Positions 39,937-61,784 of a stretch of DNA of 64,000 bases are shown piece by piece (the stretch's first letter is position 1; every line of letters starts with the position of its first letter). The translations under genes and the position numbers were made by a program. Origin of the DNA: a virus; IMG/VR virus record IMGVR_UViG_3300014050_000004, positions 54,466 through 118,465 of that record. The stretch is one strand, 5' to 3'. The notes beneath the pieces are model-generated. The model did not search any database. It was not told the origin of the DNA and worked only from the letters and a program-made list of their open reading frames with translations.

Positions 39937-39979
39937 ATTATAGGTCGTTTGGAGGGTCCGGTAAAGTTCGGTTAACCGA
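39937..39979 (-). promoter_or_regulatory. Palindrome-linked sigma70-type promoter
   Basis: TCGGTTAACCGA-A-CTTTAC-N18-TATAAT. Confidence 0.8.
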
Positions 39980-40538
39980 TCTGACAAGTCCCCAAAACGT
40001 ATCCAAGTATTTCTGAAGCTCGAGATTCCGGGGGTCCGTCAATTTCGAAATTGAGCCCGTTGTCAAACTCTTTCAGATGGCTTTGAACCAGGTTATCAAT
40101 CTCTTTCGCCTCTTTCTCAGATTCCCACCTTCCGCGAGTGTCGAACGGTCCTACGCGCTTCAAGAAAAAGTTCAGATGAGTGACATTCTCTTTCTCGGCC
40201 TCCCTTAGGAAAGCTTTGGCAGCCTCTCCAACATACTTGTCTTCCCCTTTCGATCTGTACTCCTGGTAGACTCCTGCAAGCAGAATGGGACTGTCTGTGA
40301 CAATGTAGTCAACCTTGCCGTACAAGGTGCTTTCGTAGGAACTTTGCTTCCCAAGCAAGTACAACTGGTCGCTCTGTTTAACCTTACGATCGCTCCAAGC
40401 CCAATGTTTCACATATTCCCTAACAAGTTCAACATGAAGACCGAGAAGCTTCATCTGACCAAAAAGTAAAGCGGCAGTAGTAGATTTACCACACCCTGGC
40501 CCGCCAAACAGATTTATAACGATCGTATTGTTTCTCAT
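39972..40538 (-). CDS. NadR/Ttd14-like P-loop kinase (AAA_28)
   Basis: INLFGGPGCGKSTTA...ELVREYVK...IVTDSPILL. Confidence 0.8.
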   Translation of the reverse strand: MRNNTIVINLFGGPGCGKSTTAALLFGQMKLLGLHVELVREYVKHWAWSDRKVKQSDQLYLLGKQSSYESTLYGKVDYIVTDSPILLAGVYQEYRSKGEDKYVGEAAKAFLREAEKENVTHLNFFLKRVGPFDTRGRWESEKEAKEIDNLVQSHLKEFDNGLNFEIDGPPESRASEILGYVLGTCQIG

Positions 40539-41014: not shown

Positions 41015-41638
41015 TTAGATGTCAAGGTCAAGGTGTGAAAGTTCACCCAACCCCATGAAGTCAACCCCTTTATGCACTATGTGGTAATCGATGTGCCAGT
41101 GGCCATGTATCCAAAGATCTGGCTTATGAATCTCCAGCATGTTGTCGAAGCATTTGCGGGTTGCACAAGGAATGTCTAGCATTCCAGGGTACACCCTGGA
41201 AATTACTGATTCTGGGCACTCGTGACTGATTACGACTCTGGGTTTGGCCAATTCGTAAACCTCGATGATTTTGCAAAGCTGAGAGTAGCTCAGTTCCTCA
41301 TCGTGCCACCAATCGTAGCCTTCAGTGCGCAGGTGTTTGTCTATGGAGAGTGCCCCGCCGACACAGAAAATGTCATCACGCCCAAGTGCCGATTCCCCGT
41401 CAGCAACATAATAAGGATGCCCCTTGCATTCTTCAAGATTGTCATGGTTGCCCCTTATAAAAAAGTGCTCCCCTTGAGCCATGGCATCAGTGGGGGGACC
41501 TTCGAGCTTTTCTCCAGTGCGATAGTTTCGAAAACCAACTCCGAAATCTCCAACCTGAAGGGAGCGGTCGCACTCTTTAATTAGGGCTTTGTAGCGAGAC
41601 CATTTGCCATGTACATCGCCGATGAATCTGATTTCCAT
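41015..41638 (-). CDS. Calcineurin-like metallophosphoesterase
   Basis: GDVHG, VGDFG, RGNHD, SHECP, HGHWH. Confidence 0.9.
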   Translation of the reverse strand: MEIRFIGDVHGKWSRYKALIKECDRSLQVGDFGVGFRNYRTGEKLEGPPTDAMAQGEHFFIRGNHDNLEECKGHPYYVADGESALGRDDIFCVGGALSIDKHLRTEGYDWWHDEELSYSQLCKIIEVYELAKPRVVISHECPESVISRVYPGMLDIPCATRKCFDNMLEIHKPDLWIHGHWHIDYHIVHKGVDFMGLGELSHLDLDI

Positions 41639-41688: not shown

Positions 41689-42138
41689 TCAGGAATTAAA
41701 CGGCTTTGGTACATTGACTCTCCTTGAATAGTGGCTGAATCTTTCCATCACAGGGGGACTCTCACCATTGGTAGAAGGAAGCTCCGGTGTCTCAAAACTC
41801 TGGTTTACCTCTGGTTCTTCAACAATTCTGAGTGGAGCGTCTTGCCAAAGGATGTGTTCGTACAGCTCTTCTCCCTCTGGTGACAAGGATGTTATGACAC
41901 TGTTTACAAGTTCAATGAATTCTCGGTTCGAAGATCTCCTTCCCTTGTTGTACAATTGTTTGTGAAACATTGCCGTAATCTCGTTGGCAATTTCCGTGGA
42001 CTTTTTGCTCAGTATCTTCTTTTCTCTCAGGAGTTTGTACACTGAGTGCCAAAGGGAATTAGCCTTCTTCTTTTCCTCTGAGAGTTCATCCTGGAGCTTT
42101 TTGATTTGTGCTTCAAGAGCGGTTATATTGTCAATCAT
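41689..42138 (-). CDS. Hypothetical protein
   Basis: N-terminal coiled coil; overlaps the kinase stop. Confidence 0.6.
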   Translation of the reverse strand: MIDNITALEAQIKKLQDELSEEKKKANSLWHSVYKLLREKKILSKKSTEIANEITAMFHKQLYNKGRRSSNREFIELVNSVITSLSPEGEELYEHILWQDAPLRIVEEPEVNQSFETPELPSTNGESPPVMERFSHYSRRVNVPKPFNS

Positions 42139-42619
42139 TGATTAACAAGGTGTGGTCGTACTTTTTGCAGAGGTTACTGATTCGCGTGCTCATGCCCTTC
42201 CTCCAGGATTCATTCTGTTCTTCACCCCTCTTAGCATGTCTCTTGTTCAGTTCCTCCTCCCCAACAGATACGCATACGAGCTCCATGTCCGCATTTTCAA
42301 ACATGGCATCTAGATTAGGTTGATTGCTGAATCGTTCCCCCTCCCCCAGAATAGTCCAACCCTCAAGATCTTCCTTGTTGGCTGACAGCCATTCTCTAAA
42401 CTTGGGGCCAACCCCTTTGGACATGCGGTCTGTACCGTCGAAAGTGCTTCCGTCATACCTTCCCAAGACAATCACCTTCTGCTGAGGGAATCTATGGTAG
42501 ATAACAAGACCCTCTTTGACTTCTTCATCTTGTTCCTTCTTTCTTAGGTCCTCAATGAAACTCTTCATTAAGGTGGTTTTTCCAGTCCCCGGTTGGCCGA
42601 TGTAGTAGCGTATCTTCAT
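42131..42619 (-). CDS. P-loop kinase, 5-hydroxymethyl-pyrimidine DNA kinase-like
   Basis: GQPGTGKTT...VLGRYDGSTFDGTDRMS...LGEGERF; resembles the P-loop kinases of base-hypermodification loci. Confidence 0.7.
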   Translation of the reverse strand: MKIRYYIGQPGTGKTTLMKSFIEDLRKKEQDEEVKEGLVIYHRFPQQKVIVLGRYDGSTFDGTDRMSKGVGPKFREWLSANKEDLEGWTILGEGERFSNQPNLDAMFENADMELVCVSVGEEELNKRHAKRGEEQNESWRKGMSTRISNLCKKYDHTLLIND

Positions 42620-42640
42620 TTTGGTTTGAGGTTTGATTGT

Positions 42641-42669
42641 ATTATAGAGTGAGAGAACTATGATGTAAA
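42641..42669 (-). promoter_or_regulatory. sigma70-type promoter
   Basis: TTTACA-N17-TATAAT upstream of the kinase; no palindrome. Confidence 0.65.
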
Positions 42670-42678
42670 CTTATCTCT

Positions 42679-43725
42679 TCAACTTCCTATGACCTCTTGG
42701 GCCAAGAGCAGTAAAGAATTACAAGAGTTCTTCCATGTCCAACTTTCACTCTTGACCAAAGCTCTTTTCACCTTGGCTTTTGTTTCTTCCTTGTTCTCCA
42801 CACACTTTAGGATTTCCTTTGAAAGGTCTTTGTAAGAGCTGGAATCTGCTATGTAACCACAATCTCCAACTATCTCTGGAAGGGAAGCGCACGGAGCTAC
42901 AACTACTGGAACTCCGAGAGACATGGCTTCAATAACAGGCAATCCCATGCCTTCATACTTGCTTGGGCAGACGTACATCTCAGACTGTGTGATCAATTCA
43001 CACAGCTCTTGATCTGACAAAGAATCATAGAACATAACTCTCTCTTCAAGTTTCATCCCTCTGATTGCTTCCAGCTCTTTAACAGAAGGGGGTTTGAACG
43101 AAGATACCCTAAGGTCCAAGTCATGGTCTTTCAAGGTCTTCAAAAGAGCAGTGAAGTTTTTACTCTTTTCATACCGGTTACCCCAATACACCATGTAGGG
43201 CTTAGGAGGACTCTTCGTGGTAAACTTAGTAAGTTTGCCGCCGGAGAATTTGCTGCCGGAGTACAGACATTTTGTGTTCGCTCCCGGAATTATCTCCAAC
43301 ACTTGTTTTTGTATGAAAGGAGTTGTACAAGCAAAGGTATTTGTTAACTTCGAGAGACCTCTTAGGGTCAGGCTGATGGAAAGGCTGTATTCTTCCCTTC
43401 CGGGGATGTCCACGTCATGTACCACAGGTAGCACTTTTTCACAGACAGGAAACATTGTAAAGTGGTTCCCGATTTGAATGTCAAACGGACCTAGATCTTC
43501 GTAAACTTTCTTAAAGTTGGAGGTTTCAATCTTACCGTTGAAACGAGTGTACCCACCCTCGGGTGGGTTCCATTTATGAAACTTTGGCCTCCTTAACAGT
43601 AGATCGTCCACAACCACGCACACTTCATGGTTTTCCCTTCTTAGGTGGGATATCATTTGTCTATCCCATTCATTGATTCCGCATCCACCAAATCCCACAT
43701 TTCCGGAATCCCACAAAATTCTCAT
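42679..43725 (-). CDS. GT-B (family 4-like) glycosyltransferase
   Basis: PSKYEGMGLPVIEAMSLGVPVV...SLPEIVGDCG; KSKNFTALL. Confidence 0.9.
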   Translation of the reverse strand: MRILWDSGNVGFGGCGINEWDRQMISHLRRENHEVCVVVDDLLLRRPKFHKWNPPEGGYTRFNGKIETSNFKKVYEDLGPFDIQIGNHFTMFPVCEKVLPVVHDVDIPGREEYSLSISLTLRGLSKLTNTFACTTPFIQKQVLEIIPGANTKCLYSGSKFSGGKLTKFTTKSPPKPYMVYWGNRYEKSKNFTALLKTLKDHDLDLRVSSFKPPSVKELEAIRGMKLEERVMFYDSLSDQELCELITQSEMYVCPSKYEGMGLPVIEAMSLGVPVVVAPCASLPEIVGDCGYIADSSSYKDLSKEILKCVENKEETKAKVKRALVKSESWTWKNSCNSLLLLAQEVIGS

Positions 43726-44015
43726 AGTACAATCTCCTCAACTTTTCTCTTGAGAATCCTCTCCCAGTACGACTTAGTCTTAGGCATAACTTCTATTGTA
43801 GGTATACTATGAACCCATTCAGAATATTTTATCAACTCTTTGGACAAATGAGTTACAATGACCACAGTGTTTAATAATAGTAAGTGTTCAGTCTCAAATG
43901 GGTAGTCCCAAATGAGTTGATATTCTGGCAATACCAAAGAAATCGTCTGTGCTTGGGCTATCTCTTTGAGGAAGATGCTATTTGTCCCCGATCTGAAGAC
44001 GGTGCAGTGTTTCAT
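43722..44015 (-). CDS. Hypothetical protein in the modification cluster
   Basis: ATGA overlaps on both sides. Confidence 0.6.
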   Translation of the reverse strand: MKHCTVFRSGTNSIFLKEIAQAQTISLVLPEYQLIWDYPFETEHLLLLNTVVIVTHLSKELIKYSEWVHSIPTIEVMPKTKSYWERILKRKVEEIVL

Positions 44016-45028
44016 AATTCTTCAGAAAAGTGGTGGAATGACCCCGTCTCAAGAAAGTGGCTCATCTTTTGATTGTCTATTTTCGCTCCTCGAGGGGCCC
44101 AGATGTCCCCCACAACCTCTTTTCTCATTTGGTGCAACACCTCCCAGTCAATCCCATGCCACCCTGAACTCTCTGCTTTCGCAATTTGCTCTGACATTCT
44201 GTCCAAGTAAAAACCGCAGTATCTGCCCTTCTTCACTCGAAAAAGTTTTTTGTATGAGCACCCCACGGTTTCTAGAGAAAAAGCGTCAAACTGACTGGAA
44301 TGTCCGGACCATCGACCTTTCGCCTCCTTGATAAGATCCTGAGAAAAACCTTCTAACCAATCGTACTCATCTGCGGTTAATCTCTGGTTAACCCAGTCAT
44401 CTTTTCCGGCGGCGAAGCACAAACCGTTTCTATGAGATTTGGACCCAGAGTAGTCGCTGAGCATCAGGGTTCTGGGCTCTATGGGAACACCGCAAGTGTG
44501 CTTATAAGTCTGAAGCACAAACCAGGCCGAGTACCTTCCCATCTTCCACCAGTCATCTATAATAACACGCCACAATCGGTCAAAGTTCTCTTCGGGAGAG
44601 TCTTGGCACAAGTCCGAAAATCTCTCGTGTTGAGTCCTCTCCCCAACAAAGTCATGGTAGCTTGAGTACATAGAGGCTATGTGTCCTTTGCTCCATTTTG
44701 TGTCTGTATCGTAGTAGATACGTGAGTAGTTGTCATTATTCCACTGCTCAAATCTCTCCACGGAAGCCAGCTCTTGGTCCGGGAATTCGTTCTTCATAAT
44801 GAACGCCGTGGGCAAATTATAAGTGTGGTAGAGCCATGCAAAAAAGTAACGTTCTTCAATGTTGTATTCGTACCTTTCATTGAGATAGTTAATGCCCCAG
44901 AGAGGACAATCAACATCCCCGATCTCTGTACAGGCTGCCCACCATTGCAAGAAACCTTCTCTTCTGTTTCGCGGCAGTCTGAAATCCAGGGAGGGAGCAT
45001 TCGTTTTTGCAGACAGTTTAGTCATCAT
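44012..45028 (-). CDS. Amino acid:DNA transferase-like protein (aGPT-Pplase2/ADDT)
   Basis: FAWLYHTYNLPTA...FPD...YDTDTKWSKGH...MGRYSAWFVLQTYKHTCGVPIEPRTLMLSDYSGSKSHRNGLCFA...ETVGCSYKKLFR...RYCGFYLDRMSEQI. Confidence 0.75.
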   Translation of the reverse strand: MMTKLSAKTNAPSLDFRLPRNRREGFLQWWAACTEIGDVDCPLWGINYLNERYEYNIEERYFFAWLYHTYNLPTAFIMKNEFPDQELASVERFEQWNNDNYSRIYYDTDTKWSKGHIASMYSSYHDFVGERTQHERFSDLCQDSPEENFDRLWRVIIDDWWKMGRYSAWFVLQTYKHTCGVPIEPRTLMLSDYSGSKSHRNGLCFAAGKDDWVNQRLTADEYDWLEGFSQDLIKEAKGRWSGHSSQFDAFSLETVGCSYKKLFRVKKGRYCGFYLDRMSEQIAKAESSGWHGIDWEVLHQMRKEVVGDIWAPRGAKIDNQKMSHFLETGSFHHFSEEL

Positions 45029-45067
45029 GTGAACTTCTCACAGCTTTTGAACAAGGTTACAGGATTC

Positions 45068-45074
45068 GGGTAAA
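45068..45074 (+). promoter_or_regulatory. GGGTAWR putative late-promoter element (PTP gene)
   Basis: GGGTAAA, 30 nt upstream of GTG 45105. Confidence 0.4.
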
Positions 45075-45104
45075 GGTATGGATACAGGTCAAGAAGAAGC
45101 TCTT

Positions 45105-45512
45105 GTGAAGGTACTTTTTATATGCACTGGTTGCATTAATCGAAGCGCGACAGCCCACGTTATTCTTGCCACCCTTGGCAAAGACAAGCATGAAGTTCAA
45201 AGTTGCGGAACAGGCAAAGTTGCACCCTTAGGGTGCCGCATACCCCGGAAGATGAGGGATGTCTTGACAGAAATGGGATACGACCCCGCTCATCACAGAT
45301 CCCAGGGCATCAATTTGGAACTTTTGTCTTGGGCAGACAAAATTATCTGCATGGGGAATGTCCATGAGAAGTTCATTAAGAAACACTTTCCTGAGATGCA
45401 CAATAAAGTTGAAAATTGGAGGATCAAGGATCCACACTTTGCCAAGGGAGATGCGTTGCATAGGACGGTCGCTAAAGAAATTGAGCAGTGCGTGAAGACT
45501 CAATTTCTCTGA
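45105..45512 (+). CDS. Low-molecular-weight protein phosphatase (LMW-PTP/ArsC fold)
   Basis: VLFICTGCINRS (CX5RS), SCGT, HRSQ, IICM, IKDP. GTG 45105 or ATG 45078 start. Confidence 0.85.
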   Translation: MKVLFICTGCINRSATAHVILATLGKDKHEVQSCGTGKVAPLGCRIPRKMRDVLTEMGYDPAHHRSQGINLELLSWADKIICMGNVHEKFIKKHFPEMHNKVENWRIKDPHFAKGDALHRTVAKEIEQCVKTQFL

Positions 45513-46428
45513 TGGCTGCTACAGTTTCCTCTGAAGAGCAGGTATCTATGTCTACTAACTCCCTCAGTTTACAGATTCGTTCCTCCACAACTTTTCTGCT
45601 GTTTTTGTCAAAGTTGGTGTAGGAGTACCCTTTTTCCATGGAGTCGTTGTAAGGAGCGAAGGGAGGAAAGTCACAGTCACTCGAGGACAAGAGTTCCGAA
45701 ACCGGAGCATTTTCGAGTGCCATCGGGATGAAGTTTTTGACCCAAATGAAGCAAGATAGGAGCTTCCGGGGGGATCGAGTGCAAGTGAAATGTCGAAACT
45801 CTATGGTATCAGTTTCTTTTATTTGAAGCAGGTTAATGCCGGCCCTGGTTGTTAATCCCCACGCAGGCTCACCTGATTGGGAAGTTGGAGCATGGGCTGC
45901 CAGGAATTCTTGGACTGTTTCCGCTTTGAGGGCTGCTTGAACCCTGTTCTTAGGCACTTTGTATTGATGTGAAACCTTCCTTCGATTGAACCGTTTACGA
46001 GCCCCTCTCAGCTCCTCGGGGGAAAAGTCTCCTAGGCTTGGTACGGGGATTGGTTCAATAACCTCGTAGATTTCACTCTGGTGAGTGTCAATGTATTTTA
46101 GCAACCTTTTCAAAGATGCAAGGTCTTCGCTCAACCCTGGCACTCTTACATGCAAGTGGAGGTTTGTTCTGTGATTTACAGAAGCTTCAGGATGCATAAC
46201 CAGCAGCTTTTCAAACATGAGGATTTGTTCCTCAAGAGATTCCGAGGGTCTAGAGTTTATCTCTCCTCCCCTCTTATAAATCAAACCCTTAGGATCATTG
46301 GCTATTCCGGTACTTGAGACAACAGAGTAGTCTTTTCTGTTCCAAGTCAGACCGTCTGGCAAATCTGTTAGCCACACATCTCCAAACTCGTACTCTGCTC
46401 CAAAGGTTGAGTGTTCAAAATTCAGCAA
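45472..46428 (-). CDS. Amidoligase (glutamine-synthetase-like COOH-NH2 ligase, Amidoligase_2-like)
   Basis: TFGAEYEF, GGEINSRP, RTNLHLHV, RAGINL, TIEFRHF. Confidence 0.8.
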   Translation of the reverse strand: MLNFEHSTFGAEYEFGDVWLTDLPDGLTWNRKDYSVVSSTGIANDPKGLIYKRGGEINSRPSESLEEQILMFEKLLVMHPEASVNHRTNLHLHVRVPGLSEDLASLKRLLKYIDTHQSEIYEVIEPIPVPSLGDFSPEELRGARKRFNRRKVSHQYKVPKNRVQAALKAETVQEFLAAHAPTSQSGEPAWGLTTRAGINLLQIKETDTIEFRHFTCTRSPRKLLSCFIWVKNFIPMALENAPVSELLSSSDCDFPPFAPYNDSMEKGYSYTNFDKNSRKVVEERICKLRELVDIDTCSSEETVAAIREIESSRTAQFL

Positions 46429-47084
46429 GGTATCAGCTCCTTAATTTGGGTTAGAATTACTTCAGAGTCTTCGCTATAAATCACACCTGGTACACATCTC
46501 TCAGGGTTCCCTAAGCCTGATCGTATAGCTATGTCTTTGGTTGAGGTTAGAAAGAACCCATTCTTGACATTGACTTTCCATAGCGGCCTCTTACCGTTTC
46601 TGTAGAATCTGATTGAACCGTTCTTCCTAAGCTCCAGGACAGCTATAGAAGAATCCTTGAATTTCATCATTGGTTCTTCCCCAGCCTCCAAAGCTCTGAG
46701 TATGAGCTCGGAATCATTCTTCCCCGTTAAAGGGTAGCCATACTTAGACCAAGAGTCTGGCGAGTTTTGGTCAACTACACCGTTATGGACTATAGAGATC
46801 TTCTCTCCAAACAGAGGTTGGTTGTACTGCAAGTCAGAGGTTGAGTAGCGGCAATGGCCAATCAAGGATAAGGATTGCCCAGAAACACAGCTTTCAAGGT
46901 CGAAATCTGAAAGAAAAGTCTCAGCACTCTCTGGCTTTTTAATTGTTGTTATGGCATTGTCCTTGAAGAAGGAAACACCGAATGCATGTTTACCTCTTAT
47001 TTGTGACTCAAGCGCAATCCTCCTAAGGATTATCAGATCTTGTTCAGAGGTTTCCTCAAGTTGACAGCCGAAGATGGCACACAT
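46422..47084 (-). CDS. Class II glutamine amidotransferase (Ntn hydrolase)
   Basis: Start moved to MCAIFG (N-terminal Cys nucleophile); RGKHAFG, GHCRYST, YNQP, HNGVV, DSE. Confidence 0.88.
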   Translation of the reverse strand: MCAIFGCQLEETSEQDLIILRRIALESQIRGKHAFGVSFFKDNAITTIKKPESAETFLSDFDLESCVSGQSLSLIGHCRYSTSDLQYNQPLFGEKISIVHNGVVDQNSPDSWSKYGYPLTGKNDSELILRALEAGEEPMMKFKDSSIAVLELRKNGSIRFYRNGKRPLWKVNVKNGFFLTSTKDIAIRSGLGNPERCVPGVIYSEDSEVILTQIKELIPC

Positions 47085-47132
47085 ATTGTAATGAGGGTGT
47101 TGGTTGGTTCGTTCATTCAAAACTCTGGAACT

Positions 47133-47160
47133 ATTATAGCCCGGAGAGTGGGCGGGTAAC
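47133..47160 (-). promoter_or_regulatory. sigma70-type promoter candidate
   Basis: GTTACC-N16-TATAAT upstream of the GATase ATG. Confidence 0.45.
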
Positions 47161-47163
47161 CCA

Positions 47164-47454
47164 CTACCAACTGATGTCCAAGATTTGAGAGCCCATAACA
47201 TTATCCAAGGTAACTACCGTGTAACCTTTCTCTTCTAAGATGTGGGATATGCCGTTGCTGTAATGAGAGCCAAGGTTTCTTGGCATTGTAAAGATCAACC
47301 TGTTTTTGCAAGCCGAAGTGCAATTCAAAACTTCTTGGAATATCACCTTGAGAAGTCTTCTGGCCTCGAAAGAACCTCCAAATGTGTCTCGAGCTTTGAT
47401 AGTAAGTCTTCTGGCTTCCTGTACACTTATCTCGTTTTCCATCGGCCTTGTCAC
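47164..47454 (-). CDS. Hypothetical protein
   Basis: Overlap with the ATP-grasp stop. Confidence 0.6.
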   Translation of the reverse strand: MTRPMENEISVQEARRLTIKARDTFGGSFEARRLLKVIFQEVLNCTSACKNRLIFTMPRNLGSHYSNGISHILEEKGYTVVTLDNVMGSQILDISW

Positions 47455-48194
47455 ACTAAGTTACAAAATAAAATCTGATACCATCTGCTTACAAGCATCT
47501 CTGAGTATTCCAGGCTTGTTGGCGGATTAGATTGACTGTCGGTATTGTTGTAGAACCCGAGAGACCAAGCATCGTTGAGTTCAATTAGAGAGTACTTTTG
47601 AATGTCGGGCCTCCAACCGATGTCAATCGAATAGGCATTGGGTCCCAGCTCTTGATGGAAAGCGTTGGCGATTCTTGCAATCATCTCGAAATCAGGGTCT
47701 GGATTTGTCACCTCCAGATCGTCGTACCTGGACCACCCTAAAACCTTAGGCTCCTGAATAGTGTCTTGTATGTAAAATCGAAACTCAGACTCAAACTTTG
47801 TTGGTTCCGATATCCACACTCTTGTGCTTGGGTCTATGCTCTTGACAAGGTCCTTTTTGAGCGAACCTGTGAACAGTTTAACTGTGTCTCGGGGTTTGAC
47901 AAATTCCTCTTCGGAGGCTTCTGCTAAAACACCCTGCCGAATGTTTCGGCTTAGGTAAGGCTCTACAAAATCAGGAAATCCTAACGGTTCTGGAAGTTCT
48001 AGACCGAAAACTCTGCAGTATTCTCTCACAAACTCTACTGTTCCCACGGGAGTGGTAGAGCACTTGTATTTGTTCACATCGAGATTTGGCAAGCTCTCCA
48101 AAGGCAGAGACAGGGTTTGGTAAGGAGAGAGAACGCAAGCAATTTTTTCGGACCCCGAAAAGTTGCCACTTTGAAGTAGAAATTTGTCAATCAT
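47451..48194 (-). CDS. ATP-grasp protein (DUF4343/R2K-like)
   Basis: PVGTVEFV...FVKPRDTVKLFTG...SEFRFYI...AYSIDIG...LIELNDAWSLGFY. Confidence 0.8.
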   Translation of the reverse strand: MIDKFLLQSGNFSGSEKIACVLSPYQTLSLPLESLPNLDVNKYKCSTTPVGTVEFVREYCRVFGLELPEPLGFPDFVEPYLSRNIRQGVLAEASEEEFVKPRDTVKLFTGSLKKDLVKSIDPSTRVWISEPTKFESEFRFYIQDTIQEPKVLGWSRYDDLEVTNPDPDFEMIARIANAFHQELGPNAYSIDIGWRPDIQKYSLIELNDAWSLGFYNNTDSQSNPPTSLEYSEMLVSRWYQILFCNLV

Positions 48195-49623
48195 ACAGCA
48201 CCCATTCCGGCGATGGAGCGAACTTGTGAAGCTTCACTTCTCCTGTGACAGTGTTTTTGTAAGGAGAGGAAAGTTGCCAGTTCGAGTTTGAACACCGGGT
48301 CAGTCCCCTCTCAGCTTTGAAAGCCTTCCACTCATCAGATAGCCACATCTGAGGCCAAACCCCTCTCCAATCCGAGTGCTCCTTTCCCTTTTCTCTTAGA
48401 TTTTGAGAGGAGTGTCTGATGAAGTCTCGACGACAAGTTTCGCATTCCAGGTCATCGAGGTATACCATGTTTTCCCTGGAGTAGAAAACCATCGAAACCC
48501 TTTCAGCATCCTCAGAGTCTTTGACCATTGGGGTGTTCCCATGAATCAAATTCTGGGTGTCCGCAATGATGAAGTCCCCGTCTCTCACGTCAAAGGCGAG
48601 TTTCAACTCAGGAAATACTAAGTAGTGCCCTGTGTAGGAACCTTGAGAGATGACTGTGAGAACAGCCATGGCCTCTTTGAGGTTGTTTTTGTCTACGTGG
48701 TAAGCGGTTTGAAAGTTGAAATTGAGGGTTATGCTTGTGAAAGCTGTGTCAAATAAGCTATATAAGGGTTCCTTGACTTTGCTAATTACTGATCGTACCT
48801 TGCTCCAGGTCTCAGGAAACAAGCTCTTAAACCCTTGGTCAACTGCAATGTAAACGCTCTTAAACTTTTCGAAATCTTCAAAGTTTCTTTGAGTCGTCCC
48901 GCTCAATCTCCCATAGGGAAACCTTGCTCCCCTGTCTATAGCTCCAAGCACATTGCTGTAACAATGATTGAAGTTCAGCTGAGAGCTGATGAAATTTGAG
49001 TGAACTTTGCTGGCTTCTTCTTTTTTGCTGAGGGATTTGGACCAGACTTCTTCCAGCCAAGGTTCAAACCAACTCCACAAAACAGTTCTTTTTTCTTCCT
49101 CCCCAACAAAAGCACCACTCTTGGCTCTCTTGTCTATCTCTGCCAAAGCATTCTTGATATGGGGAAATTCTTTTTTGATGTGCTTGGACTTAAGGGTTTT
49201 CACAGTCAGCTCATCAGAGCTGGACAAAACTTGCCTTGCACTTTCAAGGTTAGAGATTGACCCTGAGATCGCTCCTTTGAAGAAATCCACTTGACCGCGA
49301 GTGAGCCTGGCTTCTCGGCGAGTGGTGAGCTCAGTACCTGCAACGACCCCTCTCTGGGTCCCATAAACCTCACGGGAAGCCCTCCTAAAGAAGGGCCAGG
49401 CTTCCCCCGAAGAGCCCTCTGAGAGGGCTGGTATGAGGCTCCTACGGAACGATAGGACCTTGGCCTCAGCCACATAGACGTCGCAATCGTCATTGATCAC
49501 TCTGTCAAAGTCCCCCTCTTGAGGGAATTTGCCGATGTAGAGGCTTCTGGGACAATCGTGGAGAGAGTCCAGTTTTACAACTTCAGGACTCTCCCTACTC
49601 ATAAGGTCTTCAGAAACCGTCAT
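48187..49623 (-). CDS. TET/JBP-like 2OG-Fe(II) dioxygenase, copy 2
   Basis: FTSITLNFNFQTAYHVD (HxD), LVFPEL...VRDGDF, HGNTP, RVSMVFYSRE; start moved to the ATGA overlap at 49623. Confidence 0.85.
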   Translation of the reverse strand: MTVSEDLMSRESPEVVKLDSLHDCPRSLYIGKFPQEGDFDRVINDDCDVYVAEAKVLSFRRSLIPALSEGSSGEAWPFFRRASREVYGTQRGVVAGTELTTRREARLTRGQVDFFKGAISGSISNLESARQVLSSSDELTVKTLKSKHIKKEFPHIKNALAEIDKRAKSGAFVGEEEKRTVLWSWFEPWLEEVWSKSLSKKEEASKVHSNFISSQLNFNHCYSNVLGAIDRGARFPYGRLSGTTQRNFEDFEKFKSVYIAVDQGFKSLFPETWSKVRSVISKVKEPLYSLFDTAFTSITLNFNFQTAYHVDKNNLKEAMAVLTVISQGSYTGHYLVFPELKLAFDVRDGDFIIADTQNLIHGNTPMVKDSEDAERVSMVFYSRENMVYLDDLECETCRRDFIRHSSQNLREKGKEHSDWRGVWPQMWLSDEWKAFKAERGLTRCSNSNWQLSSPYKNTVTGEVKLHKFAPSPEWVLYD

Positions 49624-51110
49624 TTGGTGCTTTCCTCCCACACCTCCAAGTGCTCCCAGTCTTCCCCAGGTGAGTGAGTTGATAGCTTAACCTCTCCTGA
49701 GGTTTTGTTTCGGAAAGGTTTGGTACCCCAGTAGTTACCGTTGCCGCAGTGGGTCATTCCTTTTTGTTCGCGATAGTCAAGCCATTCCTGGGAGGTCCAT
49801 TGGCCACTCCACACTCCGTTCCAAGTGCTATGGCCAGTGCCCTTTTCTTGCAGGTTTTTACCACAGTATTGCATAAAGTCTTTCCTGCACTCTTCGCAGT
49901 CCAAACCTTCAAGCAGAGTCATTCTCTCTCGAGAATAGAAAACCAGGGACACTCTTTCAGCATCAGGGGATTTGGGCTTCATTGCCGTATTGCCATGGAT
50001 CAACCCTTGATTGTCTCCGGCCAGGAAATCCCCGTCTCGAAGATCAAAAGCGCACCTTAGCTCAGGGAACACGAGGTAATGTCCCTCATAGTCTCCTTGC
50101 GTCATTGCTGAAAGAACAGCCACGCCACCCTCGCAATTATTAGCGTCATAGTGCATTGCGCACCGGAAGTTCCAATTAAGTGTCAGAGCTGTGAATACGG
50201 TCCCAAACAAGTTGTAGTGTGGATCTTGCACTTTTGAGAACTTCTCATGAAGTACAGTCCACCTATCACCCAAAGTTTCCAGCAAAACATCGGAAGCAGT
50301 TTGATACACATCTCTGTGTCTCACAAACTCTTCATAGTTTTTCAAAGTTGTGCCTGTGAGCCTACCATAAGGGTTTCTAGCTCCCCTGTCAAAAGCACCG
50401 AGAACATTGCTGTAACACTTGTTGGATCGCAGTTGTTTGCTGATGTACCTGTTGTCGGCCCACTTAGCCTCCTTAACCCTGTCCTCAGCAGAGTCCCATT
50501 TCTCTTTCAGCCAAAGCTCAAACCACTCTCCAAGAATCTTTCCTTTCTCTTTCTTCAGCTCTTCTTTTCTGTCCTCGGGGGTCTTCTTCTTGCGGATTTC
50601 AGCCTCAAGGGGTGCGAGCCTTTCTGAGATGCTCGGGAAGTCTTTCTTAATTTCGGTGACACGGATGATGTATTTGCTCGGGTCAGGGGACATCCCAACG
50701 ATATCCATGGCTTCTTCCACAGAGGAAACATTGTCGGCAAAAGCCTTTTTGAAGAAGTTAAGAATGCCGTTTGACACTCGGCCTTCGAGATCTGTGGTCA
50801 ATTCTTTGCCCGCTACGAGACCCCTTTGGTCCGAGTAAAGGTCTCTTGATGCCCAACGCAGATACTCCCAAGTTTTGGGATCTCCCTTTGCACCTTCCTT
50901 GAGTTTAGGGAAAACGGACTTCCGGAAGGCTAGAACCTTCACCCCTGCAACATAGACGTCACAGTCTTCTTGTACAAGAGTGTCGTAATGGGTTTCATCC
51001 GCAAAGTACCCGATCAATTCCTTCGGGTCGCAGGGGTACAGAGCGTCAAGCTCAATTCTCTTAGCTTGAGGTCTGGACCTGAGCTCTTCAATTACTTGTG
51101 TTTGTGTCAT
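49620..51110 (-). CDS. TET/JBP-like 2OG-Fe(II) dioxygenase, copy 1
   Basis: QRGLVAG, FTALTLNWNFRCAMHYD (HxD), LVFPELRCAFDLRDGDF, HGNTA, RVSLVFYSRE. Confidence 0.87.
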   Translation of the reverse strand: MTQTQVIEELRSRPQAKRIELDALYPCDPKELIGYFADETHYDTLVQEDCDVYVAGVKVLAFRKSVFPKLKEGAKGDPKTWEYLRWASRDLYSDQRGLVAGKELTTDLEGRVSNGILNFFKKAFADNVSSVEEAMDIVGMSPDPSKYIIRVTEIKKDFPSISERLAPLEAEIRKKKTPEDRKEELKKEKGKILGEWFELWLKEKWDSAEDRVKEAKWADNRYISKQLRSNKCYSNVLGAFDRGARNPYGRLTGTTLKNYEEFVRHRDVYQTASDVLLETLGDRWTVLHEKFSKVQDPHYNLFGTVFTALTLNWNFRCAMHYDANNCEGGVAVLSAMTQGDYEGHYLVFPELRCAFDLRDGDFLAGDNQGLIHGNTAMKPKSPDAERVSLVFYSRERMTLLEGLDCEECRKDFMQYCGKNLQEKGTGHSTWNGVWSGQWTSQEWLDYREQKGMTHCGNGNYWGTKPFRNKTSGEVKLSTHSPGEDWEHLEVWEESTK

Positions 51111-51191
51111 TGGGTGTAATTTTATTCTGGCCTTTGAGGTGCAGGGGGGTCAGATGTATTATCTTAGCCTCCGGTTTGTGGCTGTAAACAC

Positions 51192-51217
51192 AAAAAAGGA
51201 GCCGGTTGACCGACTCC
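51192..51217 (-). terminator. Intrinsic terminator after the sprT-like gene
   Basis: GGAGTCGG-TCAA-CCGGCTCC-TTTTTT. TTTACA-N16-TAAGAT follows and may be the promoter of the dioxygenase operon. Confidence 0.8.
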
Positions 51218-51245
51218 TTGCGCTCCAGCGTCGTCTCTGAATCTG

Positions 51246-51857
51246 CTAGTATACCAGGGTGTTACTGTTGTAAAATACCGTTTCGGCAATTTTTTTCGCA
51301 ATCAGCGCGAAGTCAAGATCCTCAAAACAATCAATGTTGCCGTTGACGGTGTCAGAGTGGATGTAGGGCTTTTGGCACTCAATCTCTTTGTCATAGAAAA
51401 GTACTCGGAAGGAATAACCTTTGTCCTTACAATGGGTGTTGATCCGAACAGATTCTCGAATGAAGGAATCTCCGTGGCCCTTCATGCCACGATCTTCACC
51501 AACTAGGTCAAGATAAGCGTGGAGCATCTCATGGAGCAGAGTGCTCTTTGTGAGAGCAAGGTCCTTTGCAATCTTACGAGAAAGGCGGATGATTCCGCAC
51601 CCCGCTTTGGTGGATCGCTTGGTAGTGTAAGTGCCCAGGGTTCTCAACCCCATCCTACCATCCCACTTCACACGGTCAAATGACACGTGCTCTTCGCCAC
51701 TCCGCGTCTTTTTGATAATCTTCTTGAGTTCAGGCAGTTTCCCGTAGAAAAACTCATTGTTGTAAGTGGAGTAAAGCTCCCCAAGATCATACATGACCTC
51801 AGGGTTCGGGCAGAAGGTCCGGAAGAAGCTTTCTGAGAGAGTGGTAGAGAGTTCCAT
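51246..51857 (-). CDS. SprT-like zinc metalloprotease
   Basis: ELYSTYNNEFFYGKLP...IRLS...TLLHEMLHAY...GHGDSF; start moved to MELS. Confidence 0.85.
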   Translation of the reverse strand: MELSTTLSESFFRTFCPNPEVMYDLGELYSTYNNEFFYGKLPELKKIIKKTRSGEEHVSFDRVKWDGRMGLRTLGTYTTKRSTKAGCGIIRLSRKIAKDLALTKSTLLHEMLHAYLDLVGEDRGMKGHGDSFIRESVRINTHCKDKGYSFRVLFYDKEIECQKPYIHSDTVNGNIDCFEDLDFALIAKKIAETVFYNSNTLVY

Positions 51858-51863
51858 ACTATT

Positions 51864-51906
51864 ATCATACTCCACTTGGGCAAGGAAGTAAAGGTCGGGT
51901 AACCGA
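51864..51906 (-). promoter_or_regulatory. Palindrome-linked sigma70-type promoter, leaderless
   Basis: TCGGTTACCCGA-C-CTTTAC-N18-TATGAT-N6-ATG. Confidence 0.78.
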
Positions 51907-52854: not shown

Positions 52855-53214
52855 TTAATCAGATAGGGGGATGAATTTAGATTTTTTGCCGTGCTTCAAA
52901 GTACCCGACATCCAGGGTTGGAGAGCCATGTTGTTGAGGTATCTCTCTACTGTGGGTATGAAACCAAGGTCTTGAATGATGTGGTCTTCAGCCACGTCCC
53001 TTGGGGAGTACGTTTTTCCGTCGGAGTTTGTGCGAGTTCTTCCGAAAACTTTTTCAACAAGGAAACAACCAAAGGAATTGTGAAGCAAGGCTCTGTGTCT
53101 CATGTCCGGCACAGACACCTTTGACGAATCGATGAAATCATCTATGTCGGAGTAATCCTCGGGGACACCTCCGTACTTTCTGGCATGCTTAATTCCGTGC
53201 AAATATGGTTTCAT
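52855..53214 (-). CDS. DUF6915-like His-rich protein
   Basis: MKPYLHGIKHARKYGG...DFIDSSK...RHRALLHNSFG...VAEDHIIQDLGFIPT. Confidence 0.7.
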   Translation of the reverse strand: MKPYLHGIKHARKYGGVPEDYSDIDDFIDSSKVSVPDMRHRALLHNSFGCFLVEKVFGRTRTNSDGKTYSPRDVAEDHIIQDLGFIPTVERYLNNMALQPWMSGTLKHGKKSKFIPLSD

Positions 53215-56132: not shown

Positions 56133-56848
56133 TTCTCAGAGAATTGGACGTAGTAGTTTTGAGTGACATTGTAAGCAGTCAGCTTTCCGCCGCGACTGAA
56201 AAAAGCTGCCGTGTCAAGGTTCACCCTATCCGGATGAATGTCGGGTTTGAAGCTCTTTTGGGGAGTGTGACCATGAAACACCCGCTTCAGGTTTGGATTC
56301 CACTTTTGAAAGTCAGGGCCGTGTTCAAGAAAAACCCCCCTTATCCATAGAAGGTTGTTTGCCTGCCCTGCAATAACACTGTCTCTCGGGTCATGTCCGG
56401 GGTAGATGCCAGCATGGATGAACATGTTCTCTCCAATTACCATGTATACGGGTAACTGCTTCATCCAATCAAGGAACTGGAGCATTTCCTCATAAGCCTC
56501 ACCGTTGCCCCCATTTTTCCGCCAAATGTTGTAACTTTCCGACCACATGTTATTGTATTCTCTCACAGCGTCTATGAACATGGCTTCATGGTTGCCTTTG
56601 AGAGCGTAAAAACTTTGAAGTCCGAATCTCTCAGGATCCTGACACCTGAGGTAGCAGGATTCTAGAACTGGGATGTCGTCCCCCCCTCTGTCTATCATGT
56701 CGCCGAGGATCACAACTGTCGCCTCTGAACCGTCAACCCATTCCAGAAATTGCCGGAATGGGCCCCATGTAGCGTGGATGTCACCAACGGCTATAACATC
56801 GCCTTTGTTGATTGTGTTTTTCATGTGTTCTGATATGATCTTAGTCAC
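56129..56848 (-). CDS. Ser/Thr phosphatase-type metallophosphoesterase
   Basis: GDIH, LGDMIDRG, KGNHE, HAGI, LWIR, HGHTP, LDTAA. Confidence 0.92.
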   Translation of the reverse strand: MTKIISEHMKNTINKGDVIAVGDIHATWGPFRQFLEWVDGSEATVVILGDMIDRGGDDIPVLESCYLRCQDPERFGLQSFYALKGNHEAMFIDAVREYNNMWSESYNIWRKNGGNGEAYEEMLQFLDWMKQLPVYMVIGENMFIHAGIYPGHDPRDSVIAGQANNLLWIRGVFLEHGPDFQKWNPNLKRVFHGHTPQKSFKPDIHPDRVNLDTAAFFSRGGKLTAYNVTQNYYVQFSEK

Positions 56849-60624: not shown

Positions 60625-60656
60625 TGTTGTTTTGAAGGAGTTGTTTCTATGTAAGT

Positions 60657-61778: not shown

Positions 61779-61784
61779 GTATTT

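What the first reader, a model, noticed from the sequence alone, without database searches (positions are those of the whole stretch)
42131..51110. Candidate new DNA hypermodification pathway: TET/JBP dioxygenases plus DNA kinase, amino-acid transferase, glycosyltransferase and amide-ligase enzymes
Seen: within 9 kb lie two TET/JBP-like dioxygenases, an ATP-grasp, a class II GATase, an amidoligase, an LMW-PTP, an ADDT/aGPT-Pplase2-like protein, a GT-B glycosyltransferase and a P-loop kinase. No dUMP hydroxymethylase/thymidylate synthase or C5 methyltransferase is in the window. Established: in phages ViI and M6, hmU made at nucleotide level is phosphorylated on DNA by a P-loop kinase and displaced by an amino acid via the ADDT. 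JBP oxidises T to hmU before glucosylation (base J), and phage TETs oxidise 5mC before glycosylation. Inference: this phage may make the hydroxymethyl pyrimidine post-replicatively and branch it to both a sugar and an amino-acid/amide adduct. I know of no characterised pathway with this combination, and it fits a polymerase that uses ordinary dNTPs.
Basis: partly seen in the sequence, partly recalled or inferred. Interest (0 to 1): 0.92.

Follow-up and report, generated by a model that had tools for sequence, protein, structure and literature searches.

The report
Phage thymine hypermodification gene cluster
An uncultured freshwater phage carries a conserved 9-kb gene set that most likely oxidises thymine in finished DNA and builds an unidentified amino-acid/amide and sugar group on it. 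This kind of pathway is already published, so the window is a new variant, not a new kind.

Summary
Window 42131-51110 holds two intact TET/JBP dioxygenases, an R2K ATP-grasp, a class II glutamine amidotransferase, a glutamine-synthetase-like amidoligase, an LMW phosphatase (on the opposite strand), an amino acid:DNA transferase (ADDT) with its catalytic Cys/Glu, a GT4 glycosyltransferase and a P-loop kinase.

The order is conserved in metagenomic relatives. The same DNA recurs at about 99% identity in freshwater samples from 2013 to 2025.

No C5-methyltransferase, ThyA-type hydroxymethylase or ParB was found in the 118-kb contig or in near-complete relatives. A ThyX lies outside the window. 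Thymine is therefore the likeliest TET substrate.

The idea is not new. Lee et al. 2021 showed metavirome contigs with TET_JBP, kinase and aGPT-Pplase2, and reported amidoligase and glutaminotransferase genes in the wider kinase/aGPT-Pplase2 contig set. O'Toole et al. 2026 demonstrated phage thymine dioxygenases linked to GATase, kinase and AADT. This scan has also reported at least eight similar clusters in other genomes.

What differs here:
- a tandem pair of long (about 480-500 aa) TETs with no ParB helper;
- a conserved LMW phosphatase;
- a GT4 plus small-ORF unit inserted between transferase and kinase;
- close relatives that carry a sugar cassette (TAGT) at the same site.

The final base is unknown.

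The parts
49620..51110 (-). TETb: long-form TET/JBP 2OG/Fe(II) dioxygenase (496 aa)
   Evidence: Pfam Tet_JBP E 1.4e-16. 45% identical to TETa over the full length, with HxD, distal H and R conserved. Orthologs at 68-71% identity in relatives.
48187..49641 (-). TETa: long-form TET/JBP dioxygenase (484 aa ORF; database homolog starts 6 aa later, about 49623)
   Evidence: Pfam Tet_JBP E 2.7e-18. Invariant H315, D317, H367, R389 in 22 homologs. AF2 pLDDT 91.9; Foldseek top hits CcTet, CMD1, NgTET1, human TET2.
47451..48194 (-). R2K-clade ATP-grasp ligase (247 aa); membership in the pathway uncertain
   Evidence: Pfam R2K_2 1.2e-20, R2K_3 1e-19. Follows the TET gene(s), with up to one small intervening gene, in close relatives with either cassette type. 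Absent in L082 and in the T4-like cassettes L046 and L066.
47164..47454 (-). Small ORF u96 (96 aa), unknown, not conserved
   Evidence: No Pfam or PHROG hit. No similarity to the ORF in the same position of L081.
46422..47084 (-). Class II (Ntn) glutamine amidotransferase, true start at Met40 of the ORF
   Evidence: Pfam GATase_6. All homologs found start 'MC'. Invariant Cys1, R30, GHxRYSTSD, HNG, NDSE.
45472..46428 (-). Amidoligase (carboxylate-amine ligase, glutamine-synthetase-like fold), 318 aa
   Evidence: 12 of 19 homologs hit Pfam Amidoligase_2. AF2 pLDDT 93.5. VIA Z 9.6 to YbdK-type 1tt4; all top 50 hits are GCL/GS/YbdK/PafA. Start overlaps the GATase stop by 7 nt.
45078..45512 (+). 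Low-molecular-weight phosphatase (LMW-PTP family), antisense to the cluster
   Evidence: Pfam LMWPc 6e-16. CX5RS loop 'CTGCINRS' and DP motif. Where the whole ORF is in the locus (7 of the 8 relatives found), it keeps the same motifs; in L017 the ORF is cut at the locus end, so only the NRS part of the loop is seen. L046 carries it on the same strand as the cassette.
44012..45028 (-). Amino acid:DNA transferase (ADDT / aGPT-Pplase2), 338 aa
   Evidence: Pfam ADDT 2e-18. About 30% identity, E 1e-21 to 1e-23, to Ackermannviridae orthologs of ViI gp247. Invariant E253/T254/C257 'LETxxC' aligned with the PhaxI protein.
43722..44015 (-). Small ORF u97 (97 aa), unknown, travels with the GT
   Evidence: 55% identical to the ORF directly before the GT in L081. 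No family hit. Atlas gave nothing usable.
42679..43725 (-). GT4-family (GT-B) glycosyltransferase, 348 aa
   Evidence: Pfam Glycos_transf_1 9.5e-22, GT4-conflict 1e-6. About 23 orthologs at 47-63% identity. In the same ADDT-GT-kinase position in L081 and L082/L083. Absent from L002, L008, L016.
42131..42619 (-). P-loop kinase (Ploopntkinase3), candidate 5-hydroxymethyluracil DNA kinase
   Evidence: Pfam Ploopntkinase3 2.5e-9. Walker A 'GQPGTGKTT'. In mycobacteriophage JAMaL a homolog (2873-3349) lies beside the ADDT match (1918-2724); more homologs occur in other actinophages, among them Rhodococcus phage Tonitrus. Always with ADDT in related loci.
51161..51219 (-). Terminator-like hairpin (51219-51196) then promoter-like site (51188-51161) just upstream of TETb
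   Evidence: Consensus scan only. Lies between SprT-like (51246-51875) and the TETb start. A 1-nt insertion polymorphism at 51143 is seen in other samples.
42641..42669 (-). Promoter-like site (TTTACA-17-TATAAT, 11 of 12) between GT and kinase
   Evidence: Consensus scan only.

Best explanation
This is a post-replicative thymine hypermodification cluster of a freshwater tailed phage. The phage is myovirus-like, has a family-A DNA polymerase, and its nearest cultured relative is Synechococcus phage S-CBWM1.

Proposed steps:
1. DNA is replicated with ordinary dNTPs. A phage ThyX supplies dTMP. (Inferred.)
2. TETa and TETb, two autonomous long-form TET/JBP dioxygenases, oxidise thymine in DNA to 5-hydroxymethyluracil. 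They probably differ in sequence-context preference. (Inferred from homology, from the absence of a C5-MTase, and from published phage T-dioxygenases.)
3. The P-loop kinase phosphorylates the hydroxymethyl group. (Inferred from context only.)
4. ADDT uses Cys257/Glu253 to form the exocyclic methylene and replaces the phosphate with an amine or hydroxyl nucleophile, an amino acid or ammonia. (Inferred by homology to ViI gp247 and M6 gp51.)
5. The GATase-amidoligase pair then remodels the adduct. It either amidates the appended amino acid's carboxylate with glutamine-derived ammonia, or, if ammonia is the ADDT nucleophile, acylates the resulting 5-aminomethyl group.
6. The GT4 (with u97) adds a sugar, either to leftover 5hmU or to a hydroxyl of the adduct.
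7. The LMW phosphatase probably removes phosphate from unreacted phospho-hmU.

The R2K ATP-grasp may add a further amide-linked residue or may be unrelated. The final base is unknown. Its likely use is protection of phage DNA from host nucleases.
For: - All catalytic families and motifs are present.
- TET fold confirmed. Amidoligase fold confirmed.
- Conserved order SprT-TETb-TETa-R2K-GATase-amidoligase-(LMWP)-ADDT-[u97-GT]-kinase in several independent metagenomic contigs.
- The amino-acid cassette (GATase, amidoligase, LMWP, ADDT, kinase) also sits behind a distant TET (30-37% identity) in the T4-like contig L046, there with a TAGT glycosyltransferase.
- Close relatives and S-CBWM1 carry TAGT + NTP-transferase + APH instead, at the same site behind the same TETs. 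The TET product therefore looks like a common handle.
- No C5-MTase or ThyA in the contig, nor in relatives of 98-100% completeness. ThyX is present.
- Listed differences against 2015-2025 freshwater samples are mostly synonymous (23 of 34), with no indel inside a gene.
- Literature: phage TET/JBP enzymes oxidise T in DNA and are linked to GATase, kinase and AADT (PMC13229309). Kinase plus aGPT-Pplase2 chemistry on 5-hmdU DNA, with the essential Cys/Glu (PMC8989533). A Glycos_transf_1 GT acting on a DNA-borne group in a TET cluster (PMC8256090).
Against: - No chemistry was measured. T versus 5mC specificity cannot be read from sequence.
- The contig is only about 53% complete, so a C5-MTase could lie in the missing part. 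The near-complete relatives searched mostly carry the sugar cassette, not this one.
- The kinase belongs to Ploopntkinase3. The PhaxI gene placed by gene order as the ortholog of the validated ViI gp243 kinase hits HMUD2, so its substrate here is inferred from neighbours only.
- A similar kinase sits next to a C5-MTase and a TET in the cultured Methylophilales phage Melnitz. This kinase type may therefore also serve cytosine pathways.
- R2K ATP-grasps of phages were predicted to modify host proteins (PMC4431377).
- R2K and SprT adjacency is confined to one phage clade and may be mere shared ancestry.
Confidence: 0.68

Rival explanations
1. The pathway starts from 5-methylcytosine, not thymine. 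A C5-methyltransferase, encoded in the missing half of the genome or supplied by the host, makes 5mC. The TETs make 5hmC, and kinase, ADDT and GT decorate cytosine.
For: - The contig is about 53% complete.
- Phage TET clades A/B act on 5mC and feed glycosyltransferases (PMC8256090).
- In the cultured phage Melnitz a HhaI-like C5-MTase, a TET and a Ploopntkinase3-like kinase are adjacent.
Against: - No PF00145 match in the 118-kb contig, nor in five relatives including three of 98-100% completeness.
- Characterised ADDT homologs all act on 5hmU-derived DNA (PMC8989533).
- Only 6% of phage 5mYOX pathways co-occur with a C5-MTase (PMC13229309).
- Phage 5mC-type TETs have the methylase next door. 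Here there is none within 10 kb in any relative.
Confidence: 0.1
2. Only part of the block is one pathway. TETs, kinase, ADDT and GATase/amidoligase modify DNA. GT4+u97, the R2K ATP-grasp and/or the LMW phosphatase do other jobs, such as host protein or envelope modification, or dephosphorylation of host tyrosine kinases. On this reading there is no sugar on the base.
For: - GT4+u97 is absent from several otherwise identical clusters (L002, L008, L016).
- The GT is not of the TET-associated TAGT family, and JGI's automatic annotation names several orthologs cell-wall glycosyltransferases.
- R2K is missing in L082 and in T4-like cassettes, and was predicted to act on proteins (PMC4431377).
- The LMW-PTP is on the other strand.
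Against: - The GT sits exactly between ADDT and kinase in the three fetched contigs (two arrangements: L081 and L082/L083). Further GT orthologs appear, by matching contig lengths only, to share contigs with the amidoligase.
- An unrelated GT family (TAGT) is inserted inside the same cassette in L046, so a sugar-plus-amino-acid combination arose twice.
- The LMW-PTP is kept in all relatives with the LMWP-type cassette, including L046 where strand and TET clade differ.
- A Glycos_transf_1 enzyme acts on DNA-borne groups in another TET cluster (PMC8256090).
Confidence: 0.2
3. The enzymes act on RNA (for example tRNA wobble-uridine-like chemistry) or on free nucleotides, not on DNA.
For: The predicted adducts resemble tRNA xm5U chemistry. 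Close relatives such as S-CBWM1 carry many tRNA genes nearby.
Against: TET/JBP, ADDT and the associated kinases have only been shown to act on DNA polymers (PMC8989533, PMC13229309). The cluster lies among replication genes: PolA, topoisomerase, 5'-3' exonuclease.
Confidence: 0.02

Closest known systems
Metavirome clusters with TET_JBP, 5-hmdU DNA kinase and aGPT-Pplase2 (Lee et al. 2021, NAR, PMC8989533; Fig. 2, sequences 22-25)
   Same: Same logic and same core genes. A TET_JBP replaces the dUMP hydroxymethylase and feeds a kinase and an amino acid:DNA transferase. Amidoligase and glutaminotransferase genes were reported in the wider kinase/aGPT-Pplase2 contig set. The authors drew the same inference (T to 5hmU in situ).
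   Different: In the main text held (figures are not held), those clusters were shown as gene maps without products. I found no mention there of an LMW phosphatase, an R2K ATP-grasp or two tandem TETs. Whether this contig family is among their four examples could not be checked, because the supplements are not held.
Phage 5-methylpyrimidine dioxygenases (5mYOX) clades C1 (ParB-dependent) and C2 (ParB-independent), O'Toole et al. 2026 (PMC13229309)
   Same: TET/JBP enzymes of phages that lack a neighbouring C5-MTase and oxidise T to 5hmU on DNA. Clade C1 is 'consistently linked' with GATases, P-loop kinases and AADTs.
   Different: - The characterised enzymes are about 290-300 aa or a little longer. 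These are 484-496 aa, with a large helical insert and a C-terminal extension.
- No ParB_N match, and no homolog of the L066-type upstream helper, in the contig or its clade.
- A second TET paralog sits where C1 cassettes carry the helper.
Salmonella phage ViI (5-NeOmdU) and Pseudomonas phage M6 (5-NedU) pathways
   Same: Kinase activation of 5hmU on DNA, followed by displacement of the phosphate by an aGPT-Pplase2/ADDT with an essential Cys/Glu. The window's ADDT is about 30% identical to the ViI-type enzyme and keeps both residues.
   Different: - 5hmU there comes from a ThyA-type dUMP hydroxymethylase before replication. Here there is none.
- The PhaxI gene taken, by gene order, as the ortholog of the validated ViI gp243 kinase hits Pfam HMUD2. 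Here the kinase is Ploopntkinase3.
- Tailoring there uses PLP decarboxylase or radical SAM. Here it is GATase, amidoligase, LMW-PTP and GT4.
Phage TET43/TET14 + GT-II + GT-I cytosine pathway (Burke et al. 2021, PMC8256090)
   Same: Post-replicative oxidation by a phage TET followed by glycosylation. The GT-I is of the same Pfam family (Glycos_transf_1) as the window's GT.
   Different: That pathway needs an adjacent C5-MTase and acts on 5mC. It has no kinase or ADDT. GT-I there adds a second sugar to one placed by GT-II, and the window has no first GT.
Base J synthesis in kinetoplastids (JBP1/2 + JGT), and phage TET + TAGT cassettes such as Synechococcus phage S-CBWM1
   Same: T to 5hmU by a TET/JBP enzyme on DNA, then a sugar. 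S-CBWM1 and relatives such as L013 share the window's TET type (43-70% identity) and backbone synteny.
   Different: The window has no TAGT/JGT-type transferase. It carries the amino-acid cassette plus a GT4.

Membership tests
TET/JBP (5mYOX) dioxygenases | 2OG/Fe(II) double-stranded beta-helix with HxD...H iron triad and 2OG-binding Arg | tested here: met
   Pfam Tet_JBP above cut-off for both proteins. H315, D317, H367 and R389 are invariant in 22 homologs covering both paralog groups. AF2 model matches CcTet, CMD1, NgTET1 and TET2.
TET/JBP (5mYOX) dioxygenases | Substrate is thymine (JBP-like), not 5mC | not testable with these tools
   Indirect only: no C5-MTase in the contig or in near-complete relatives, and an ADDT/kinase context.
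ParB-dependent 5mYOX clade C1 cassette (O'Toole 2026) | Neighbouring ParB-like activator gene | tested here: not met
   No ParB_N match at E<=10 in the contig, and none in five relatives. No homolog of the gene upstream of the TET in L066. That L066 gene was not itself verified as ParB-like.
ParB-dependent 5mYOX clade C1 cassette (O'Toole 2026) | Linked GATase, P-loop kinase and AADT | tested here: met
Amino acid:DNA transferase (ADDT / aGPT-Pplase2) | Pfam ADDT domain with the conserved catalytic Cys and nearby Glu (essential in M6 gp51 and ViI gp247) | tested here: met
   Pfam 67 bits against a cut-off of 26. E253 and C257 are invariant in an alignment with the PhaxI protein that matches at the ViI-like locus. 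tblastn E 1e-21 to 1e-23 to ViI-like phages.
Amino acid:DNA transferase (ADDT / aGPT-Pplase2) | Identity of the nucleophile transferred | not testable with these tools
   Gly, Ser and putrescine are used by different homologs (PMC8989533). Nothing in the sequence decides.
5-hmdU DNA kinase (validated ViI gp243 type) | Membership of Pfam HMUD2, the family hit by the PhaxI gene four genes upstream of the ADDT, taken by gene order as the gp243 ortholog | tested here: not met
   That PhaxI gene hits HMUD2 at 1.9e-150. The window's kinase hits Ploopntkinase3 and no HMUD family at E<=0.01. M6, PaMx11 and SP10 kinases were not compared.
5-hmdU DNA kinase (functional class) | P-loop kinase encoded next to an ADDT | tested here: met
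   Walker A present. Kinase accompanies ADDT in related loci. It lies beside the ADDT match in mycobacteriophage JAMaL.
Class II (Ntn) glutamine amidotransferase | N-terminal Cys nucleophile after Met, oxyanion Asn-Gly, Arg and Asp that bind glutamine | tested here: met
   Start 'MC' in all homologs found. Invariant R30, H100-N101-G102, N123-D124-S125. Pfam GATase_6.
Amidoligase_2 (PF12224) / carboxylate-amine ligase superfamily | Direct match to the family profile | tested here: inconclusive
   The window protein gives no hit even at E<=10. Twelve of 19 homologs at 45-70% identity do, best E 3.4e-8.
Amidoligase_2 (PF12224) / carboxylate-amine ligase superfamily | Glutamine-synthetase-like fold | tested here: met
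   VIA Z 9.6 (rmsd 5.1, 218 aligned) to 1tt4; Z 9.2 to 2gwc and 1r8g. All top 50 hits are from this superfamily. Foldseek agrees.
LMW protein tyrosine phosphatase / ArsC fold | CX5R(S/T) P-loop and DP general-acid motif | tested here: met
   'CTGCINRS' and 'KDPHF'. Pfam LMWPc 59 bits against a cut-off of 23. Motifs kept in relatives.
TET-associated glycosyltransferase (TAGT / JGT-like) | Match to PF20691 | tested here: not met
   No TAGT match in the whole contig at E<=1. The window's GT is Glycos_transf_1/GT4.
GT4 (GT-B) glycosyltransferases | Glycos_transf_1 C-terminal domain | tested here: met
   E 9.5e-22, and GT4-conflict above cut-off.
R2K-clade ATP-grasp | Match to R2K_2/R2K_3 profiles | tested here: met
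   74 and 72 bits against a cut-off of 26. Catalytic lysines were not inspected.

The most novel reading that the evidence does not exclude
The two long-form TET paralogs work without a ParB helper and divide the work, either by sequence context or by oxidation level. The cassette then yields a doubly decorated thymine (an amino-acid/amide arm that is also glycosylated) or two different hypermodified thymines in one genome. A dedicated LMW phosphatase proofreads the phospho-hmU intermediate. None of these features (phosphatase step, GT4+u97 step, paralog division of labour) is described in the papers I could read.
Probability: 0.22. Interest if true: 0.75.

Novelty: new variant of a known kind. 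Interest (0 to 1): 0.5.

Why it matters
DNA hypermodifications let phages evade restriction and CRISPR systems, and they supply enzymes for DNA labelling and sequencing chemistry. This cluster type is published only as gene maps plus a demonstrated first step (T to 5hmU). The products of the amidoligase, GATase, phosphatase and GT steps are unknown.

The window gives a clean, conserved and recurrent example with every enzyme apparently intact. Comparison with its relatives shows that one TET 'primer' is combined with exchangeable sugar or amino-acid cassettes at a single site.

It also points to cultured handles, Synechococcus phage S-CBWM1 and Caulobacter phage Cr30. In these the long-form TET's substrate could be measured directly.

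Tried and rejected
- Megablast of the 9-kb block against 50,697 phage records gave no match.
- Single-protein scans of IMG/VR with TETa and with the GT gave nothing. An alignment-based scan was needed.
- Complex prediction of amidoligase with GATase returned no verdict, score 0.00. It is not used as evidence either way.
- ParB helper: no ParB_N, and no homolog of the L066 upstream gene. I did not verify that the L066 gene is ParB-like.
- Earlier notes of this scan report a shared clamp-binding C-terminal tail in T4-like versions. I printed the C-termini of all cluster proteins, of PolA and of two relatives. There is no tail shared across relatives. Only 'QFL' ends both the amidoligase and the LMW-PTP in the window, and it is not conserved.
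- u97 in the ESM Atlas: poor model, no usable hit. u96 and u149 show no meaningful conservation.
- Iyer et al. 2013 (NAR), which first predicted such systems, is not held. Statements about it rest on my memory only.
- Supplements of PMC13229309 and PMC8989533 are not held. I could not place these TETs in the published clades, nor check whether this contig family was among the published examples.
- The RNA-library contigs of X3 cover most of the block from the kinase to TETb, in pieces with gaps. They do not prove transcription, because DNA may be present in that library.
- A broad literature search for later characterisation of the kinase/AADT steps found nothing further.

Full report
**What is there.** The window is the last 64 kb of a 118,465-bp IMG/VR virus contig, linear and about 53% complete by CheckV. 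It is a tailed phage. The window holds a large terminase, a Mu-type portal, a major capsid protein, baseplate J, a family-A DNA polymerase with a pol-gamma-type exonuclease domain, a topoisomerase IV/GyrA-like subunit, a 5'-3' exonuclease, an RNA ligase and a lysozyme. Of 137 called ORFs, 124 are on the minus strand.

**The genes at 42131-51110.** In transcription order on the minus strand the block holds:
- TETb, 49620-51110.
- TETa, 48187-49641.
- An R2K ATP-grasp, 47451-48194.
- A non-conserved small ORF, u96.
- A class II GATase, true start at 47084.
- A 318-aa amidoligase, 45472-46428.
- An LMW phosphatase on the plus strand, 45078-45512.
- ADDT, 44012-45028.
- A small ORF, u97.
- A GT4 glycosyltransferase, 42679-43725.
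- A P-loop kinase, 42131-42619.

Most neighbours overlap by 4-8 nt. A terminator-like hairpin and a promoter-like site lie between the upstream SprT-like gene and TETb. Another promoter-like site precedes the kinase. These are consensus matches only.

**Are the enzymes intact?**
- The two TETs are 45% identical end to end, and both keep HxD, the distal His and the 2OG Arg. These residues are invariant in 22 homologs.
- The TETa model (pLDDT 91.9) matches CcTet, CMD1, NgTET1 and human TET2.
- At 484-496 aa the TETs are much longer than the roughly 300-aa phage T-dioxygenases characterised so far (PMC13229309).
- ADDT keeps the Glu/Cys pair that Lee et al. showed to be essential. It is about 30% identical (E 1e-21 to 1e-23) to the ViI-type enzyme of Ackermannviridae.
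- The GATase and all homologs found begin Met-Cys and keep the class II glutaminase residues.
- The 318-aa protein has no Pfam hit of its own. Twelve of 19 homologs hit Amidoligase_2. Its model (pLDDT 93.5) matches only YbdK, glutamate-cysteine ligase, glutamine synthetase and PafA, with top Z 9.6.
- The phosphatase has CX5RS and DP.
- The kinase has a Walker A motif but belongs to Ploopntkinase3. In PhaxI, the gene four genes upstream of the ADDT, which I took by gene order as the ortholog of the validated ViI gp243 kinase, hits Pfam HMUD2.

**Conservation.** About 50 homologs of TETa fall into two groups, which correspond to the two paralogs. An alignment-based scan of IMG/VR found 374 relatives, of which 76 distinct loci were kept.

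Close relatives share the order SprT-TETb-TETa-R2K-GATase-amidoligase-(LMW-PTP antisense)-ADDT-kinase. These are L002/L003 on contigs of 256 and 166 kb, L008, L016, L017, and a 60-kb JGI/NCBI contig.

The u97+GT4 pair lies between ADDT and kinase only in the window, L081 and L082/L083.

Other close relatives, some with only one of the two TET types, carry a sugar cassette at the same place: TAGT, an NTP transferase and an APH-like kinase. These are L004, L009-L015, L013 (277 kb, 98% complete) and L021. The cultured Synechococcus phage S-CBWM1 has a TAGT and homologs of the other two genes, annotated there as phosphoheptose isomerase and glucose-1-phosphate thymidylyltransferase.

Each TET paralog occurs alone in some relatives, so neither seems to need the other.

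The amino-acid cassette also occurs behind distant TETs in T4-like contigs. L046 has TET-GATase-TAGT-amidoligase-LMW-PTP-ADDT-kinase. L066 has an unknown 430-aa gene, then TET-GATase-amidoligase-GNAT-ADDT-kinase. Two conclusions follow. The LMW phosphatase is a real, recurrent member of the cassette. A sugar transferase has joined the amino-acid cassette at least twice, from two GT families.

**Which base?**
- The contig has no ThyA-family enzyme and no C5-methyltransferase, but it has a ThyX.
- Five long relatives, three of them 98-100% complete, also lack C5-MTase, ThyA and ParB_N.
- Thymine is therefore the parsimonious substrate, as Lee et al. 2021 and O'Toole et al. 2026 argued for such clusters.
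- Caveats: the window's own genome is incomplete, and most of the near-complete relatives carry the sugar cassette.
- A further caveat: in phage Melnitz a similar kinase sits beside a C5-MTase and a TET.

**Persistence.** The block is found at 98-99% of sampled words in the 2013 freshwater runs that may be its source. Contigs of a 2015 metatranscriptomic library cover most of it. It is also found in independent freshwater studies of 2024 and 2025, at about 99% identity and including the GT. Of 34 listed differences inside genes, 23 are synonymous. No indel lies in a gene.

**How it most likely works.** See the best explanation for the full sequence. The TET, kinase and ADDT steps rest on homology plus context.

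The later steps are inference, with two chemically sensible orders:
- (a) ADDT adds an amino acid, and amidoligase plus GATase amidate its carboxylate. This is the logic of glutamine synthetase or asparagine synthetase.
- (b) GATase-derived ammonia is the ADDT nucleophile, which is PurF-like logic. The amidoligase then acylates the 5-aminomethyl group.

I lean to (a) for three reasons. GATase and amidoligase always travel together in my loci. They are translationally coupled in the window. To my recollection of its Pfam entry (not re-checked here), Amidoligase_2 is also paired with GATase-like proteins outside phages.

The GT4 may glycosylate spare 5hmU or a hydroxyl on the adduct. The phosphatase plausibly clears unreacted phospho-hmU. 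R2K may be unrelated.

**Comparison with what is known.** The kind is known.
- Lee et al. 2021 depicted TET_JBP with kinase and aGPT-Pplase2 in metavirome contigs and drew the same inference. They reported amidoligase and glutaminotransferase genes in the wider kinase/aGPT-Pplase2 contig set.
- O'Toole et al. 2026 proved T oxidation by phage TET/JBP enzymes and reported their linkage to GATase, kinase and AADT.
- Burke et al. 2021 proved TET-then-GT chemistry on cytosine.
- Earlier notes of this scan list at least eight similar clusters in other genomes, mostly T4-like phages.

The window's version differs in these respects:
- a tandem long-form TET pair and no ParB-type helper;
- the GT4+u97 unit;
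- the R2K neighbour;
- a PolA-type freshwater phage backbone related to S-CBWM1;
- no shared clamp-binding tail of the kind reported for T4-like versions.

**Verdict.** A real, conserved and probably functional thymine hypermodification cluster with an unknown product. It is a new variant of a published kind, not a new pathway class. Interest 0.5.

Noticed in passing
window 51246-51875 (-): A SprT-like metalloprotease gene lies directly upstream of the TET gene(s) in the window and in nearly all close relatives. S-CBWM1 has it too, annotated there as a 'transcription elongation protein'. SprT/Spartan-type proteases clear DNA-protein crosslinks. ADDT works through a covalent Cys-DNA intermediate, and 5-formyluracil can crosslink proteins. 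The linkage could be functional, or it could be shared ancestry only.
   Followed up: partly
contig C1:36715-37344 (-), locus L001 (outside the window): A flavin-dependent thymidylate synthase (ThyX, Pfam Thy1 E 1e-42). The phage makes its own dTMP but has no ThyA-type hydroxymethylase.
   Followed up: partly
L085 (Methylophilales phage Melnitz-3, MZ577098.1) 4010-8090: In this cultured phage four genes are adjacent: a HhaI-like C5-methyltransferase, a 328-aa Tet_JBP protein (annotated hypothetical), a 427-aa unknown and a Ploopntkinase3-like kinase. This may be a cytosine-based pathway that also uses a base kinase.
   Followed up: partly
L086 (Synechococcus phage S-CBWM1, NC_048106.1) 3729-7921: The long TET is annotated 'putative SNF2 DNA repair protein'. 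The next gene hits TAGT (E 3.5e-10) and is followed by genes annotated phosphoheptose isomerase and glucose-1-phosphate thymidylyltransferase. This cultured cyanophage probably carries a base-J-like glycosylated thymine that, as far as I could find, has not been looked for.
   Followed up: partly
L087 (Caulobacter phage Cr30, NC_025422.1) 3519-8682: This cultured T4-like phage has a TET (gp129), a strong ADDT (gp123, E 1e-52), a weak TAGT-like protein (gp122) and an inositol-1-phosphate synthase nearby.
   Followed up: partly
L002 (256-kb ENA contig) and L013 (277-kb IMG/VR contig): Relatives above 200 kb carry TET/JBP genes. A 2021 survey of cultured jumbo phages (PMC7824862) stated that TET/JBP hydroxylases were absent from the jumbo phages characterised to date.
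   Followed up: no
L082/L083 5128-6645: In this GT-bearing relative the TETa ortholog is called as two ORFs (258 and 214 aa) and the R2K gene is missing. The split could be a frameshift, an assembly error or decay of one paralog.
   Followed up: no
window 41015-41638, 56129-56848, 61065-61931 (-): Three separate calcineurin-like metallophosphoesterase genes lie in one 64-kb window. Also present are an RNA ligase (63175-63984), an AAA_28 ATPase (39972-40538), DUF932 (59794-60672) and DUF6915 (52855-53214).
   Followed up: no
window 51143: A 1-nt insertion (G) relative to the window is seen in contigs of three other runs. It lies in the short spacer between the promoter-like site and the TETb start.
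   Followed up: no
window 45472-45512: The 3' ends of the amidoligase (-) and the LMW phosphatase (+) overlap by 41 nt in convergent orientation. The same antisense arrangement is kept in the relatives L002, L008, L016, L081 and L082.
   Followed up: partly
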